This document shows, piece by piece, positions 6,161-64,000 of a DNA stretch of 64,000 nucleotides. Source of the stretch: Eledone cirrhosa (taxonomy: Eukaryota); assembly GCA_964016885.1 (NCBI GenBank), contig OZ024746.1:28148001-28212000 (forward strand), written 5' to 3'. Below the pieces are notes generated by a model. It had not been told where the DNA came from. It searched no databases and saw only the letters and a list, made by a program, of their open reading frames with translations. The position numbers were made by a program, and so were the translations under genes. Position 1 is the first letter of the stretch. The number at the start of each line of letters is the position of its first letter.

Positions 6161-6699
6161 AGTGCACTTCTAAGTTTGCTGTGTGATAACTATTGCTAGA
6201 AGCCAAAAGGTAATCAGGCACTCAGACATTATATGTGTGTGTTATATCTATTGATATCACCTTATGCATGTGTATATAGATGGTATATTATATCACCATG
6301 TGTGTGTATGTGTATGCCTGTGGTATATATATATATATATATATCACCATATATATATATATATATATATATCACCATGTTTGTGTGTATATACACATAT
6401 ATGTATATATATATATATTATAACTGTGGTTCTTTGATATTTCCATAACTGTTTGATGCTGTCATTAATATCACTTAACTCGATCTTTCACACAGCTAGA
6501 ATCATTTTTAACAATTCTCTATATAGCAAATATCCCACCCCCCTCTCCCCACACCTCTCTATCATTCTTTATTATTATTACTAGTACTACATTCTCTTTT
6601 ACCATTCCAAACCGGCCATTATATTAATCATCACGACAGCAAAATACTAACCTAATTTTTCTGGTAATCACATCCATTCTCCCACCATGACCACTACTG

Positions 6700-8150
6700 C
6701 TACCACTATCAATACCACTTCTACTAATACCACCACCACTTCTACTAATACCACCACCACTTCTACTAATACCACCACCACTTCTACTAATACCACCACC
6801 ACTTCTACTAGTATCACAACCACTTCTACTAATACCACAACCACTTCTACTAATACCACCACCACTTCTACTAATACCACCACCACTTCTACTAATACCA
6901 CCACCACTTCTACTAATACCACCACCACTTCTACTAATACCACCACCACTTCTACTAATCCCACCACCAGTTCTACTAATACCACCACCAGTTCTACTAA
7001 TACCACCACTACTTCTACTAGTATCACAACCACTTCTACTAATATCACCACCACTTCTACTAATACCACCACCACTTCTACTAATACCACCACCACTTCT
7101 ACTAATACCACCACCACTTCTACTAATACCACCACCACTTCTACTAGTACCACCACCACTTCTACTAGTACCACCACCACTTCTACTAGTACCACCACCA
7201 CTTCTACTAATACTACCACCACTTCTACTAATACCACCACCACTTCTACTAATACCACCACCACTTCTACTAATACCACCACCAGTTCTACTAATACCAC
7301 CACCAGTTCTACTAATACCACCACCACTTCTACTAATACCACCACCACTTCTACTAATACCACCACCACTTCTACTAATCTCACCACCAGCTCTACTAAT
7401 ACCACCACTACTTCTACTAGTATCACAACCACTTCTACTAATATCACCACCACTTCTACTAATACCACCACCACTTCTACTAATACCACCACCACTTCTA
7501 CTAATACCACCACCACTTCTACTAATACCACCACCACTTCTACTAATACTACCACCACTTCTACTAATACCACCACCACTTCTACTAATACCACCACCAC
7601 TTCTACTAATACCACCACCACTTCTACTAATACCACCACCACTTCTACTAATACCACCACCACTTCTACTAGTATCACCACCACTTCTACTAGTATCACC
7701 ACCACTTCTACTAATACCACCACCACTTCTACTAATACCACCACCACTTCTACTAATACCACCACCACTTCTACTAGTATCACCACCACTTCTACTAGTA
7801 TCACCACCACTTCTACTAGTATCACCACCACTTCTACTAATATCACCACCACTAATACCACCACCACTTCTACTAATACCACCACCACTTCTACTAATAC
7901 CACCACCACTTCTACTAATACCACCACCACTTCTACTAATACCACCACCACTTCTAATACCACCACCACTTCTACTAATACCACCACCACTTCTACTAGT
8001 ATCACCACCAGTTCTACTAATACCACCACCACTTCTACTAATACCACCACCACTTCTACTAGTATCACCACCACTTCTACTAGTATCACCACCACTTCTA
8101 CTAATACCACCACCACTTCTACTAGTATCACCACCACTTCTACTAGTAAG
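6700..8150. repeat. 21-bp minisatellite (ACCACCACCACTTCTACTAAT)n
   Basis: Roughly 65-70 tandem units with AAT/AGT and ACC/ATC variants. It generates the spurious TTTTSTN and VVVLVE ORFs. Confidence 0.97.
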
Positions 8151-8442
8151 ATCACCATCACTACTACTACCACCACCACCACCACTGCAACTACTACTAC
8201 CTCCACCACCATTACTACAACACTGCTACAATTATTACTATCACAACAACTACTACTACTACCACCACCACCATTCCTACTACTGCCATCACCACTACTA
8301 ACACTACTACCACCACCACCAAAAATACTACCATCGCTACTACTACCACCACCAAAAATACCACCATCGCTACTACTACCACCACCATTACTATTACCAT
8401 CATCACAGCTACTAGTACTACACAGAGGCAAATCAGTTAAAG

Positions 8443-18786: not shown

Positions 18787-18844
<58 letters not shown>

Positions 18845-19610
18845 GGAATAGAATGAAACAAAATTTCATTTCTCACTCTTAGTACGGCACTTACTTAAAT
18901 GTAAGTATGTATGTATGTATACGTACATACATATATGTATAATAAATGTTCGGTAAACCGATAAGTGCATATATATATGTGTGCATGTATGTATATATAT
19001 ACGTATTTATATATATATATATACAGTATATATATATATATATATATATACAGTATATATATATATATATATAAAGAGAGAGAGAGAGAGATAGAGAGAG
19101 AAAGAGGAGAGAGTGGGAGAGAAAGATTCTGGAAAACATTTTACATTTATATACGTATATTGGACTTTTAAATTTGAATACATATCAATCCACACACACA
19201 CCAACACATATCTACACACACACACACATGCACTCACACAAATATATACTTATATATAGCATCATCGTCGTCATTGTTTAATGTCCATTTTTCCATGCTA
19301 TACATATAAATATATATATACACACGCACACACACATATATATATACATATATCATCATCATCATCGTTTAACGTCCATCTTCCACGCTAGCATGGGTTT
19401 GGACGGGAATTTTCTCACTAGAGGCAAGATTGGTTGTCTTGCTCGCATAGGACTGTCTGGCGGGTTTTTTACGGCTGGATGCCCTTCCTAACACCAACCA
19501 CGTTTACAGTGTGGACTGGGAGGTTTTTACCATGTTACCTACACAGCCACATTACAGCGTGGACTGTGTATTTTTTTTGTCGTGACACCTACACGACCTC
19601 ATTTATTTAG

Positions 19611-29760: not shown

Positions 29761-29984
29761 ATATATATATATATAATGGAATACTGTTGGCTTCTGGCTA
29801 CAATACTTTCTATACCTTTCATTTATATATATATATATATATATCTATACATTTATGTGTTTGTGCTGCAAGATTCTGGATGTGAGATCGTGTGTTGAAA
29901 CCGATATTGTTATATTTGGGGATGGTCATGTTGCCAATATTGTCATTAGAAAGAAACACATGCACCATGTAATTTTCAGTCATG

Positions 29985-30809: not shown

Positions 30810-31080
30810 CACTATATTAATAAATGTAAACTGTATTTATAAAACCATATTTATTTTATTATACATATTTCAAGGGCAACCAAGGCAAATTATGGTGTGC
30901 TTTCATCAGATAAAATATAGATTTGTTTTATAAATAAATATTGACATACCTGGAAAAAAATATGGTTTTATAAAATATGGTTTTATAAATATAGTTTCCA
31001 TTTATTAATATATTGTGTATTTACTCCACTAAACTGTTGAGTGCTTTATATCAGTTATAAAACAAATTAAGTATAACCTC

Positions 31081-33389: not shown

Positions 33390-34430
33390 TTAGTGGGAGG
33401 TTTTTCAGGAGTTTTAACAATAGGGTCCATCTTCTTGGTTTAGTAACATGTACTCTGTCTTGGTAACATTTATGTGTAGACTAATTTTCCTGGCAGAGAA
33501 TTCGACTTTATAGAGAATTTCTTTAGCTTAGTCAATGGTGTTTCATAGAGGGGTTATGTCATCAGCAAAATCTGTAACACAAATAACAATTGGTAGGTTT
33601 CACTTCACCTTTGTGTAAATATAAAGCCGAAATATTGTTCATTAACAATGGCTTCCCTCATGGCATAGTCAAGAGTTATTATATATAGATATGGTGCCAA
33701 TGTTTCACCTTCAAGGACCCACTAATATTTTGAGAAACTCTGTATCACCATCAGGAGAAAAAAACTTGGTCTTCTGTGTTTATGTAGAGTACAGTTATAG
33801 CAGAAAATGTGACATCAAGTATGCAATATGCAACTAGGATTAACATACACTTTCCTCTATGAATGAAGTCAAAAACCTTTTGGAAGTGAATGAAAGTTAG
33901 TACAGCTTTCAGGTTCTTTGATCTGACACCTAGTAGCCTCTGCAGTGTCAATATTTGTGATACAGTTGATCTATTCTGCCTGAAACCAATTTGATTTATT
34001 CTGAGTTTCAGGTTTAGATGTGTTCTTATTTTGTTTAGTAGAATTTTGTAGATTTTAACTCCAACTACTGACAAAGTAATTCCTCTATAAATTGCAGTAT
34101 ATTCTAGATCCCTCTTCTTGGGTAGAGGCACTATTCTTCCTTTTCTCCAGATTTTCTGTATATCTCCTTTGGAAGTCTTATCCAACCTGTAACTTTGTTG
34201 TTTTATGTCGACATGATTGTATCTTTCAATTCCTGCAATGTAAAATCACCAACATTTGTAGGCAGTGGGTCAAATACCTTGTTAATGTTTCCTGCAACTA
34301 CCAAGGGAGTTTGTCTAAGTAACTTAGCAAAATGTTCCTTCCACAACTTTACTCATTCATATACATATATTCTCCATTTGCGAGAGGTAAACACTCTCTG
34401 AGTAATCAATTTGAAGCCACATTACATAAT
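33390..34430 (-). mobile_element. Degenerate RTE-group LINE reverse transcriptase
   Basis: IVPLPKKRDL...YRGITLS...NQIGFRQNRSTVSQILTLQRL...F.KVFDFIHRGK, followed by GVLEGETLAPYLYIITLDYAMR and DFADDI (about 33555-33575). Confidence 0.9.
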
Positions 34431-34979: not shown

Positions 34980-35297
34980 ATGTAGAATTTCTATTTAAAT
35001 TGTTGGGATACAACAAGCAAATATTTTTATAACTGATATAAAGCACTCAACAAATAATTGGAGTAAAAATACGATATTAAGAAATGGAAACTATATTTAT
35101 AAAACCATATTTATTTCATTTTACATATTTCAAGGACATCAAGTTAAATTATGGTGTGCTTTCATCAGATAAAATATAATATAGAGCAGTTTTATAAATA
35201 ACTGATGAAAGCACACCATAATTTAACTTGGTGTCCTTGAAATATGTATAATGGAAACTATATTTATAAAACCATATTTATTTCATTTGTTAATATC

Positions 35298-35410: not shown

Positions 35411-35448
35411 CCTTTACCGGTTTCGCAGTTCTTCTGCTTTTCAAAAGG
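35411..35448 (-). ncRNA. Minimal type I hammerhead, U3-A8 core variant
   Basis: Minus strand: CCTT-TTGAAAA-GCAG(AAGAA)CTGC-GAAA-CCGG-TA^-AAGG. Confidence 0.7.
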
Positions 35449-35503: not shown

Positions 35504-35540
35504 CTTTTGAAAAGCAGAAGAACTGCGAAACCGGTAAAGG
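35504..35540 (+). ncRNA. Minimal type I hammerhead, U3-A8 core variant (mirror copy)
   Basis: CTT-TTGAAAA-GCAG(AAGAA)CTGC-GAAA-CCGG-TA^-AAGG, with a 3-bp stem I. Confidence 0.62.
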
Positions 35541-36186: not shown

Positions 36187-36241
36187 ACTGCCTGAAGAGG
36201 TCACAGCCAAAGATGGCTGTCACTGAAATATATATAGCAGT
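36187..36241 (+). ncRNA. Minimal type I hammerhead ribozyme (intact core)
   Basis: ACTGC-CTGAAGA-GGTCACAGCCA(AAGA)TGGCTGTCACT-GAAA-TATATA-TA^-GCAGT: 5-bp stem I, an 11-position stem II with one C-C mismatch, and a palindromic stem III. Confidence 0.82.
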
Positions 36242-43479: not shown

Positions 43480-43720
43480 ATATTAAATAAATGGAAACTA
43501 TATTTATAAAACCATATTTATTTTATTATATATATTTCAAGGGTAACCAAGACAATATTGGTATGCTTTGTATTTTATCTGATGAAAGCGTACCAATATT
43601 GTCTTGGTTACCCTTGAAATATATATAATAAAATAAATATGGTTTTATAAATATAGATTCCATTTATTTAATATCATTGAATATTTACTCCAGTTATCTG
43701 TTGAGTGCTCTAAATCAGTT
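43475..43720. mobile_element. Fold-back element family A copy (arms 43475-43569 and 43585-43679) next to (TA)n
   Basis: Inverted arms of about 95 bp, followed by the 3' extension TTTACTCCAGTTATCTGTTGAGTGCTC. Confidence 0.9.
43571..43635 (+). ncRNA. Minimal type I hammerhead ribozyme (intact core)
   Basis: TATTTTAT-CTGATGA-AAGCGTACCAA(TATTGTC)TTGGTTACCCTT-GAAA-TATATA-TA^-ATAAAATA. Confidence 0.85.
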
Positions 43721-52119: not shown

Positions 52120-52224
52120 TTATTATTGGTACATTATTGGCAAAGAATCGCTGCTTTCACCATATTTCCATATTTCCTGTACTAATAATAAAATACTTGC
52201 ACTACGGGTTTTATAAATTTATAT

Positions 52225-52525
52225 GGAAACAGCAGTTGGAATCAAGAGGCAGGAGAGAAGGCTGAGATGGTATGGACATGCGATGTGCATGGAGGATGAC
52301 AGCTGGGTAAAGAAGTGCCAAGAAATCCTAGTAGAAGGAAGACGCAGTAGAGGTAGACCACGAAAAACATGGGTGGAGGTGGTGAGAGCAGACCTCAGAT
52401 CGCTGAAACTCACCATGTCGATGACGAAGGACCGTGACAAGTGGAGAGATGCTGTGCTGAATAGGACCCATCCAACCCTTGCAAGCAGGGAAAAGCGTAC
52501 GTATGATAATGATGATGATGATGAT
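52225..52525 (+). mobile_element. Young 5'-truncated RTE LINE 3' end
   Basis: Uninterrupted RRLRWYGHAMCMEDDSWVKKC...EGRRSRGRPRKTW...DRDKWR. Tail CCCTTGCAAGCAGGGAAAAGCG.ACGTA(TGA)n. Confidence 0.92.
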
Positions 52526-52589
52526 ATACATATATAATTATTATCGAGCCCTCTTCGAATTTTGGTCTTCATAATTATTTATATATATA

Positions 52590-53757: not shown

Positions 53758-54079
53758 CACGCACCTGTTGGTTTTCACTTCAATTTATTGGCTGGTTGGT
53801 TGGTTCGGTAACTGGATGGTTGTTTATATATTGTTAAAGCTCTTTCGTTACACACCCGGATGTGACGCATGCGCAAACTAAACACACAACACACAAGAAC
53901 AAGATGGCGTAGGACAGAAAAAAGGAGAGAGACAAAATAAAAATCTAGTCACTGGAGAGGTCACAGAATGTGTGACGAAAAAGCTTTAACAATTTATAAA
54001 CAACCATCCGGTTATCGAACTCTCCAGCCAACCAACCGAAAACTTATAATAAATTGAAGTGAAAACCAACAGGGGCGTG
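53758..54079. mobile_element. MITE with imperfect TIRs of about 110 bp
   Basis: ACACGCACCTGTTGGTTTTCACTTCAATTTA...GTTAAAGCTCTTTCGTTACACA pairs with TGTGTGACGAAAAAGCTTTAAC...TAAATTGAAGTGAAAACCAACAGGGGCGTGT. Confidence 0.85.
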
Positions 54080-54091
54080 TGTTTTTATTAG

Positions 54092-54178
54092 CAATATGAC
54101 CCTCCCGAAGTATAACAATATCCGTTTCAACACACGTTTTCAGATAAGAAATCTTGCAAAACAAATTAAAAAACGAAG

Positions 54179-54209
<31 letters not shown>

Positions 54210-54392
54210 TGTTATACTTGGGGAGGGTCATATTGTTGTAATGATATTGCCAGAAATAATAACGGAACACACTCACTGTTATTATTTCTGGCAATATTAT
54301 TACAACAATATGACCCTCCCCAAGTATAACAATATTTGTTTCGACACACTATTACATATCAAAAACCTTGCAAAACAAATTCATCGCTATCA
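54092..54392. mobile_element. Two adjacent copies of a (TA)n-associated element; the second has a fold-back of about 58 bp (54206-54335)
   Basis: CAATATGACCCTCCC.AAGTATAACAATAT...CTTGCAAAACAAATT occurs twice, and an inverted copy precedes the second occurrence. Confidence 0.8.
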
Positions 54393-55005
54393 TATATATA
54401 TATATATGTTTTAACGACAATACAACAACTTTCTCCGGCTTAGCCTGCCCCCCCCCCCCTTTTGGAACTTTCCCCCCGTTGATGGGCGTGAGCCCGAAAT
54501 ATTGGGATTAAATCTCCACTACGGTAATCCTTCTACCTTTGTTTTGTTTTCGTTTCTCTCATTTTTCACTTTTCTCCTATTTCTTACTCACTTCCTACCT
54601 CGAGATTTCCCATCTGCATTGTTGTGGCTTTCTAAACTACATATTTTATATATATATATATATAATCACGCAAGCATATTATTAACAAGTTCCAGATATA
54701 TAAGACACCATCATTGGTTTACAAAATATTCTGAATTGTTATTCATATCACGTTACTACTTACAATAAAACCAGTCTTTTCACAGGTTGGTCCAACTGAA
54801 TAACCTGTGCCCTGCTTACATTCAGCACTAAATGACTACATCCAACTATTATACTATATACATTTTAGAAGACTAAGATAAACTAATTAGAGTATTTTAA
54901 TCGGAATTAATGTCAGGCAATGGTTTCAAAGATAATAGGAAGAAGAGCCAGATTCTTCTTTGCTGTAACAGTCAGAGCAATTGTTATATATATTTAGAAA
55001 TTTAC

Positions 55006-55335: not shown

Positions 55336-55403
55336 GGAGGTTATATGTTGATTTAAAACTGAACTATCCACAAGTGTTTTTTAGCCTTCATATCATGTCC
55401 TCC

Positions 55404-55474
55404 TGTTTTATCTGATGAAAACACAAATATTATTGCATGATGATATTTGTTTTTGAAATGCGCATAATAAAATA
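55404..55474 (+). ncRNA. Minimal type I hammerhead ribozyme (intact core, TGCGCA stem III) between (TA)n tracts
   Basis: TGTTTTAT-CTGATGA-AAACACAAATATTAT...ATGATATTTGTTTTT-GAAA-TGCGCA-TA^-ATAAAATA. Confidence 0.85.
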
Positions 55475-55502
55475 CATGGAACTCCTTTAACCATCTTTTG
55501 TT

Positions 55503-55609
<107 letters not shown>

Positions 55610-63873: not shown

Positions 63874-64000
63874 ATATATATATATATATATATAATGTAG
63901 GAGGTGAGTTTTATTGTAGAACAATAAAGCAATGCAAATATCGGATAAGTAGCACTCAATAGTTTATTGGACTGGAGTATATATAAGAAGAAATATATAA

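What the first reader, a model, noticed from the sequence alone, without database searches (positions are those of the whole stretch)
55404..55474. Stem III loop stays palindromic while its sequence changes (TATATA, TGCGCA, CCGG)
Seen in sequence: between GAAA and the UA cleavage site the copies carry TATATA (36229, 43620), TATGTA (30862, G-U compatible), TGCGCA (55459) or CCGG (35531). The GC-rich palindromes argue that this is not just TA slippage. Established knowledge: minimal hammerheads with an unstable palindromic stem III cleave as dimers by pairing stem III between two motifs. Inference: selection maintains a dimer-dependent ribozyme, and the palindrome could act as a family-specific pairing code.
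Basis: partly seen in the sequence, partly recalled or inferred. Interest (0 to 1): 0.75.

Follow-up and report, generated by a model that had tools for sequence, protein, structure and literature searches.

The report
Palindrome-paired hammerheads of Penelope retroelements
These motifs are hammerhead folds at the ends of very abundant Penelope-type jumping genes, and their short palindromes likely let two copies of the same RNA pair up and cut themselves, a design already in print; unrelated families share palindromes and some large families lack one, so they are probably not a selected family code.

Summary
In detail: all five loops are at the stated places (30862 on the minus strand). 55404-55474 is a type I hammerhead in the 3' end-piece of a Penelope-like element, Hydra type by motifs; 14,806 genomic copies carry TGCGCA. 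Palindromy is real and kept across families: 54 of 84 motifs in an even 1.53-Mb sample are self-complementary (0 of 16 in shuffles). The innermost pair, impossible in a monomer hairpin, is Watson-Crick in 13 of 16 distinct even-length family loops. The G-U variant TATGTA spread (about 2,500 copies, at least 3 changes on the tree); its mirror TACATA did not (33). This fits dimer pairing, already published (PMC3088659 Fig. S8, PMC4209133). The family code is not supported: TATATA is shared by elements only about 50% alike in protein, CTAG by two dissimilar families, and a 14,969-copy family has GAAC/GGAC. TGCGCA x TATATA is predicted not to pair, likely a by-product of divergence. Cleavage was not tested. 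This scan reached the same verdict on other pieces of this genome.

The parts
55343..55520 (+). 5'-truncated 3' end-piece (pseudo-LTR) of the TGCGCA Penelope-like element, inserted in a (TA)n tract; the only hammerhead-bearing piece of this family found in the window
   Evidence: blastn 96.8% over 187 nt to the 3' end of full-length element L032; flanking (TA)n
55404..55474 (+). Type I hammerhead: stem I 55404-55411/55467-55474, core CTGATGA 55412-55418, stem II 55419-55454, GAAA 55455-55458, predicted cut after A55466
   Evidence: stems I and II form in the predicted fold, helix III does not
55459..55464 (+). TGCGCA palindrome (8-nt ATGCGCAT with the flanking A and T), predicted intermolecular helix III
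   Evidence: 14,806 genomic matches; energies
43571..43635 (+). Hammerhead with TATATA, sister family (same 8-bp stem I)
   Evidence: 4,288 TATATA matches in this lineage
30852..30917 (-). Hammerhead with TATGTA (tandem G-U centre), same subfamily group as 43571
   Evidence: about 2,500 matches
36187..36241 (+). Hammerhead with TATATA of a different, distant family (stem I ACTGC/GCAGT)
   Evidence: this family's motifs flank a related but distant ORF in L119
35863..35917 (-). Inverted twin of the 36187 hammerhead (TATATA)
35504..35539 (+). U3-A8 core hammerhead with CCGG; stem I cut to 3 bp near the axis of the inversion
   Evidence: family 6,571 matches
35411..35448 (-). Inverted twin with CCGG, U3-A8 core and the family's 4-bp stem I

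Best explanation
The motif is a type I hammerhead fold in the terminal repeat of a Penelope-like retroelement, and its palindrome is likely kept because two copies of the same motif would pair through it to build the third helix that neither can form alone, which would switch on self-cleavage. Shown here: the motif, its place on both sides of an RT/GIY-YIG-type ORF, copy numbers, and the pattern of change in the loop. Inferred: in a transcript running through both terminal repeats (3.3-4.9 kb apart) or through tandem units, the segment A15.1 to U16.1 of one motif pairs antiparallel with the same segment of the other (double hammerhead), both sites are cut, and a unit-length RNA is released for reverse transcription. 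Because both partners come from the same family, they carry the same loop, so any self-complementary sequence works and the sequence can drift through G-U steps (TATATA, TATGTA, TACGTA seen; TGCGCA in the sister family). Failure of two different palindromes to cross-pair is then a likely by-product, not a selected code. The copy at 55404 is a solo end-piece with no same-family partner in the window and is likely inactive in cis.
For: Full-length elements with a hammerhead at each end: L031, L032 (TGCGCA), L283 (CCGG), L281 (GGAC). Loop-blind sample: 54 of 84 self-complementary, 0 of 16 in shuffles. 30 families with at least 2 sites: innermost pair Watson-Crick 22, G-U 1, mismatch 2, odd length 5; on the 16 distinct even-length loops 13 WC + 1 G-U, binomial P about 4e-6 against 0.25. 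Double-sided changes among relatives: CCGATCGG, CCGCGCGG, CCGTAC.. (display cut); CAGAGCTCTG, CAAGGCCTTG, CAGGGCCCTG. In the stem-I TTTTAT lineage 22,059 of 23,260 matches are self-complementary counting G-U. Decay of TGCGCA is strand-symmetric (309 wobble vs 299 mismatch mutants), but the amplified variant is not (TATGTA about 2,500 vs TACATA 33), and TATGTA needs at least 3 changes on starred branches. Helix III energies: monomer +4.7, homodimers -10.5 (TGCGCA), -3.2 (TATATA), -2.2 (TATGTA), +2.6 (TACATA). Literature: PMC3088659 Fig. S8 legend, PMC4209133, PMC6765202, PMC7229834.
Against: No cleavage was measured. GAAC/GGAC family, 14,969 matches, none palindromic in the 100 rows listed (78 GAAC, 21 GGAC, 1 GAGC by hand count); its GAAC homodimer helix is predicted at +2.4 kcal/mol, so a perfect palindrome is not needed for success. 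30 of 84 sample hits are not self-complementary (about 5 are expected false hits). PMC4209133 reports low activity even as dimers. Copy ends give no sign of the cut: 3' ends lie mostly 40-65 nt past the predicted site and 5' starts do not pile up at it, apart from 3 CCGG hits. The TATGTA excess could come from founder effects or strand-biased A-to-G change in RNA rather than selection. Families are not fully independent, so the binomial P is optimistic. Within-element pairs were closer than between-element pairs in L031 (2 vs 5-7 differences) but not clearly in L032/L033 (2 vs 0-4).
Confidence: 0.8

Rival explanations
1. Selected family code: each family keeps its own palindrome so that its RNA pairs only with its own kind, avoiding cross-activation or parasitism by other families.
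For: In-register heterodimers are predicted poor: TGCGCA x TATATA +5.7, CCGG x CTAG -0.2, against homodimers of -3.2 to -10.5. Neighbours of different families are common: 60 of 91 adjacent same-strand pairs within 6 kb (loci enriched for these elements), so cross-pairing could occur in read-through RNA. The most numerous member of its lineage (TGCGCA, 14,806) has a loop predicted not to pair with its TATATA sister.
Against: TATATA is the majority loop in 7 of 30 clusters, including elements with no blastn similarity and about 50% protein identity (L035 vs L119). CTAG is used by two dissimilar families. Among six 4-nt palindrome families there is one collision, as random draws from 16 would usually give (about 66%, my arithmetic). 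TATATA x TATGTA cross-pair as well as the homodimers (-3.2). Any two different palindromes mismatch by construction, so orthogonality needs no selection.
Confidence: 0.07
2. Monomer hammerhead: a 1-2 bp helix III closed by a tetraloop, helped by a protein (for example the element's RT); the palindrome is only the stem seen from both sides.
For: GAAC/GGAC, CCACTGG and CCTTTGG families keep the outer pairs but not the centre. Ten-nucleotide segments can form a 4-bp hairpin. Low in vitro activity suggests helper factors (PMC4209133).
Against: The innermost pair, which a hairpin cannot form, is complementary in 14 of 16 even-length loops and changes on both sides. Monomer helix III is predicted at +2.9 to +6.0 kcal/mol. 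A 2-nt segment (AT) cannot close a hairpin.
Confidence: 0.08
3. The palindrome works in DNA (a site for the endonuclease or another protein) or is a mutational by-product of TA slippage and inversion.
For: The elements sit in (TA)n tracts and in inverted pairs; one TATATATATA loop shows slippage.
Against: Most loops are not TA runs (20 distinct family loops). In double-stranded DNA the hexamers TATGTA and TACATA are the same sequence read from opposite strands, yet only the RNA-pairing one spread. The palindrome always sits between GAAA and UH.
Confidence: 0.05

Closest known systems
Minimal and small-palindromic-helix-III hammerheads in pseudo-LTRs of metazoan Penelope-like elements (Cervera and de la Pena 2014, PMC4209133; parts 1-2 of 4 read)
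   Same: Type I, long helix II, extra base at its 5' end, palindromic 15.2-16.2 and loop 3, U3-A8 variant, many consensus families per genome, solo copies and close opposite-strand pairs, proposed dimer action
   Different: Other host; inserts of 2-10 nt here; families with purine-purine or odd centres; wobble versus mismatch counts were not in the parts read
Repeat-type hammerheads with palindromic stem III/loop III (Perreault et al. 2011, PMC3088659; passages and Fig. S8 legend read, figure not seen)
   Different: Compared across organisms; the legend proposes no code
Hydra clade of Penelope-like elements (Craig et al. 2021, bioRxiv 2021.04.23.441226 section 11 read; PMC8557442 one supplement searched)
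   Same: DKT motif, CxCX5C linker, C-terminal GIY-YIG-like domain, (TA)n insertion, hammerheads present
   Different: Unit here is 3.3-3.9 kb against 'generally <3 kb'; no tree was built; File S2 was not seen
Dimer-cleaving PLE hammerheads (Lunse, Weinberg and Breaker, RNA Biol 14:1499) and double hammerheads of viroid and newt RNAs (Forster et al. 1988)
   Same: Palindromic short stem III, cleavage as dimers
   Different: Neither paper was read (the first is not held); known only by title and through the reviews PMC6765202 and PMC6466107 (passages). Whether they tested heterodimers is unknown to me
Metazoan non-LTR retrozymes (Cervera and de la Pena 2020, PMC7229834; passages read)
   Same: Tandem units with type I hammerheads; axolotl motif with a palindromic tetraloop cleaves better in dimeric constructs
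   Different: The 55404 motif belongs to an ORF-bearing element; tandem units of 483 and about 657 bp here are longer than the 150-450 bp reported

Membership tests
Type I hammerhead ribozyme | Core CUGANGA, GAAA and UH with stems I and II | tested here: met
   8-bp stem I at 55404
Type I hammerhead ribozyme | Stable monomeric helix III | tested here: not met
   2 bp, +4.7 kcal/mol; not formed in the predicted fold; expected for the dimer subtype
Type I hammerhead ribozyme | Match to an Rfam hammerhead model at gathering score | tested here: not met
   0 matches in the window
Type I hammerhead ribozyme | Self-cleavage after the UH site | not testable with these tools
   bench assay needed
Type I hammerhead ribozyme | Loop 1-loop 2 tertiary contact | not tested
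   not examined
Penelope-like element hammerheads | Motif in both terminal repeats around an RT plus GIY-YIG ORF | tested here: met
   L032: motifs at 7822 and 3882 around a 775-aa frame with YRDD and a GIY-YIG-like motif; Atlas neighbours at 0.95-0.98 carry HTH_animal, GIY-YIG and RVT_1; Pfam and PDB sequence searches gave no significant hit for this protein; the CCGG element L283 hits GIY-YIG above cut-off
Penelope-like element hammerheads | Partial tandem and inverted 5'-truncated copies | tested here: met
   L031 (tandem plus inverted copy), window pairs 35444/35507 and 35912/36192
Hydra clade of PLEs | DKT motif, CxCX5C linker, (TA)n target | tested here: met
   DKT at 98, CNCRIKNKC at 634; (TA)n flanks; criteria
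Hydra clade of PLEs | Length generally under 3 kb | tested here: inconclusive
   hammerhead spacing 3,334 and 3,940 nt; L032 has an expanded 111-nt tandem repeat
Hydra clade of PLEs | Placement in the clade by RT phylogeny; absence of CCHH | not tested
   no reference sequences in hand
Dimer-type (double) hammerheads | Self-complementary A15.1-U16.1 segment including the centre | tested here: met
Dimer-type (double) hammerheads | Cleavage needs a second copy | not testable with these tools
   bench assay needed
Family-specific pairing code (proposed) | Each family has its own palindrome | tested here: not met
   TATATA, CTAG, CCATGG shared
Family-specific pairing code (proposed) | All successful families carry a palindrome | tested here: not met
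   GAAC/GGAC 14,969; CCACTGG/CCTTTGG lineage 6,305
Family-specific pairing code (proposed) | Different loops do not cross-pair | tested here: inconclusive
   predicted true for TGCGCA x TATATA, false for TATATA x TATGTA; computed only

The most novel reading that the evidence does not exclude
Helix III is a lock-and-key that evolves under conflict: a family that moves to a new palindrome (TATATA to TGCGCA) stops pairing with the transcripts of its sister and non-autonomous families, gains a helix about 7 kcal/mol stronger, and sweeps the genome. This would be retroelement speciation by RNA self-recognition.
Probability: 0.07. Interest if true: 0.6.

Novelty: new member of a known kind. Interest (0 to 1): 0.2.

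Why it matters
Mostly ordinary: it confirms in one more animal genome a design described in 1988-2017. What it adds is a natural mutational series in very large numbers (an estimated 150,000 motifs, extrapolated): wobble accepted, C-A mismatch not amplified, purine-purine and odd centres tolerated. That gives ready constructs for testing whether these motifs cleave as homodimers only, which bears on the open question of how Penelope-like elements process their RNA.

Tried and rejected
Rfam scan: no match. DNA search of the own genome with the 121-nt motif: no match, uninformative because common words are skipped; pattern searches worked. Pfam and PDB sequence searches of the 775-aa frame: nothing significant. 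Sequencing runs: no RNA holder listed, so expression and cut sites were not examined and no reads were laid. Copy-end mapping gave no pile-up at the predicted cut. Single-strand folding z-scores were weak for four of five motifs (-0.24 to -1.06; -2.60 for 36180), so folding energy alone is no support. One energy script crashed and was rewritten; its values for loops of unequal length are asymmetric and were not used. Lunse et al. is not held in the library. Searches for a published pairing code listed no paper that proposes one, judged by titles and abstracts; the key paper and supplements (PMC4209133 Figs S2-S6, PMC8557442 File S2) were not seen, so absence from print is not established. Rejected: TA slippage as sole cause; pairing between the inverted twins (they lie on opposite strands, so one transcript holds one motif and its antisense).

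Full report
Observation. 55404-55474 is one type I hammerhead: an 8-bp stem I, CTGATGA, a 36-nt stem II, GAAA, TGCGCA, TA, predicted cut after 55466. A descriptor that ignores the loop found 7 motifs in the window, all self-complementary (6 strict, 1 with G-U). The CCGG motifs have a U3-A8 core, a variant described in PMC4209133. Rfam gives no match.

What carries it. The window is G000:C6:28148001-28212000 in a 3.0-Gb genome; earlier notes call it an octopus, which I did not test. A pattern for the stem-I TTTTAT lineage with a free loop has 23,260 matches and 0 for the reversed control. Window 55343-55520 is about 97% identical to the 3' end of a full-length element (L032) in which two such motifs flank a 775-aa frame. 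The frame has DKT, YRDD, CxCX5C and a GIY-YIG-like motif, and its Atlas neighbours carry HTH_animal, GIY-YIG and RVT_1 families; Pfam and PDB alone found nothing. These motifs and the (TA)n target match the Hydra clade as described in section 11 of Craig et al.; no tree against reference elements was built. A TATATA-flanked element (L035) holds a broken frame 44-61% identical to it by piece. The CCGG and GGAC families flank different Penelope-type frames with no tblastn hit to the L032 protein, so palindromic loops occur in distant groups. The window's copies are end-pieces, several as inverted pairs, the layout described for these elements.

Is palindromy kept? Yes. In 153 evenly placed 10-kb stretches the loop-blind descriptor gave 84 hits: 48 palindromic, 6 G-U compatible, 30 neither; three shuffles gave 5, 6 and 5 hits, none self-complementary. 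Over all 286 loci and the window, a looser scan gave 431 hits (overlapping loci not yet merged) in 71 clusters. After merging, 30 clusters have at least two sites in two loci; the other 41 were left out. Their majority loops have a Watson-Crick innermost pair in 22, G-U in 1, a mismatch in 2 and odd length in 5; of 16 distinct even-length loops, 13 are WC and 1 G-U. The innermost pair is the informative one, since a hairpin cannot form it. Relatives change it on both sides: CCGATCGG, CCGCGCGG and CCGTAC.. (display cut at 80 nt); CAGAGCTCTG, CAAGGCCTTG, CAGGGCCCTG. In the TTTTAT lineage: TGCGCA 14,806, TATATA 4,288, TATGTA plus TACGTA 2,656 (95 and 5 of the first 100 rows), wobble mutants of TGCGCA 309, mismatch mutants 299, TACATA 33. 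Decay is thus strand-symmetric, but of two mirror-image changes to TATATA only the one that still pairs in RNA spread. On a tree of 42 of 66 copies (TGCGCA thinned to 8, loop left out of the alignment) TATGTA needs 6 changes, at least 3 on starred branches. Founder effects and RNA-level A-to-G bias (for example editing; my inference) remain alternatives.

Mechanism. With the A15.1-U16.1 pair formed, helix III is predicted at +4.7 kcal/mol as a hairpin and at -10.5 (TGCGCA), -3.2 (TATATA), -2.2 (TATGTA) and -8.3 (CCGG) as a homodimer. The best reading is the double hammerhead: two motifs of one transcript pair through the palindrome and both are cut (inferred). Partners come from one family: 27 of 31 adjacent same-strand pairs of one cluster share the loop, and 2 of the 4 exceptions are a probable false-hit cluster. 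Copy ends did not reveal the cut, and no cleavage was measured.

Is it a code? TGCGCA x TATATA is predicted not to pair (+5.7), and 60 of 91 adjacent same-strand pairs within 6 kb are of different clusters, so the idea is not absurd. But TATATA is the majority loop of 7 of 30 clusters, including elements with about 50% protein identity and no blastn match (L035 vs L119). CTAG serves two dissimilar families, and TATATA and TATGTA cross-pair freely. Two large groups do without a perfect palindrome: GAAC/GGAC (14,969 matches, none palindromic in 100 rows listed) and CCACTGG/CCTTTGG (6,305). Different palindromes mismatch by construction, so orthogonality is expected without selection.

Comparison with what is known. 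The Fig. S8 legend of PMC3088659 already states that varied stem III/loop III sequences are palindromic and would pair as dimers. PMC4209133 reports the same for Penelope-like elements, with the U3-A8 core and weak cleavage of dimers but not monomers. The reviews PMC6765202 and PMC6466107 and the paper PMC7229834 repeat or extend it (passages only). Lunse et al. could not be read. Five literature searches listed no paper proposing a code, which does not establish absence. Earlier notes of this scan on other pieces of this genome reach the same verdict; my reading was stated before that look-up and rests on my own counts.

Verdict. Real feature, known design, new member. Dimer pairing likely (0.8), selected family code unlikely (0.07). 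Interest 0.2.

Noticed in passing
window 35128-35242: Inverted pair of decayed hammerheads of the TATGTA group (cores at 35168 minus, 35202 plus) with broken stem I or cut site, only 34 nt apart
   Followed up: partly
window 43484-43560: Inverted partial copy (stem II to 3' tail) directly before the 43579 hammerhead, which would form a long hairpin over it
   Followed up: no
window 53789-54405, 18807-18941, 29815-29969: Old pieces (75-85% identity) of the GAAC/GGAC element, the non-palindromic family
   Followed up: partly
window 63893-63986 (minus): 94-nt piece of the TGCGCA element from just inside the 5' repeat
   Followed up: no
G000:C1:59796096-59797633 (L284), C1:82116659-82120611, C1:92985000-93016000 (part in L286): Tandem arrays of 483-bp units (CCGATCGG) and about 657-bp units (CCATGG), no frame of 150 aa or more in the stretches fetched; retrozyme-like, with very long stem II
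   Followed up: partly
rows, L251-L280: One lineage holds both C3-G8 and U3-A8 cores and loops of 7-10 nt; CACAGCTCTG and CATAGCTCTG (one internal mismatch) are amplified, so long helices tolerate a mismatch
   Followed up: partly
L281 (G000:C1:36274500-36279700), rows: GGAC centre would give tandem G-A pairs (homodimer -1.7 kcal/mol), GAAC tandem A-A (+2.4); the family also has a C-U-U cut-site variant
   Followed up: partly
window 6530-8300: Array of about 80 copies of a 21-bp unit
   Followed up: no
window 33751-34245 (minus), 52217-52537 (plus): Frames that look like fragments of LINE-type reverse transcriptases (by eye, recalled motifs)
   Followed up: no
L037:4741-6945 (minus), 3-5 kb before the window start: 735-aa Q/H/N-rich open frame, likely a host exon; its end resembles FAM53 proteins (recalled, unchecked)
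   Followed up: no
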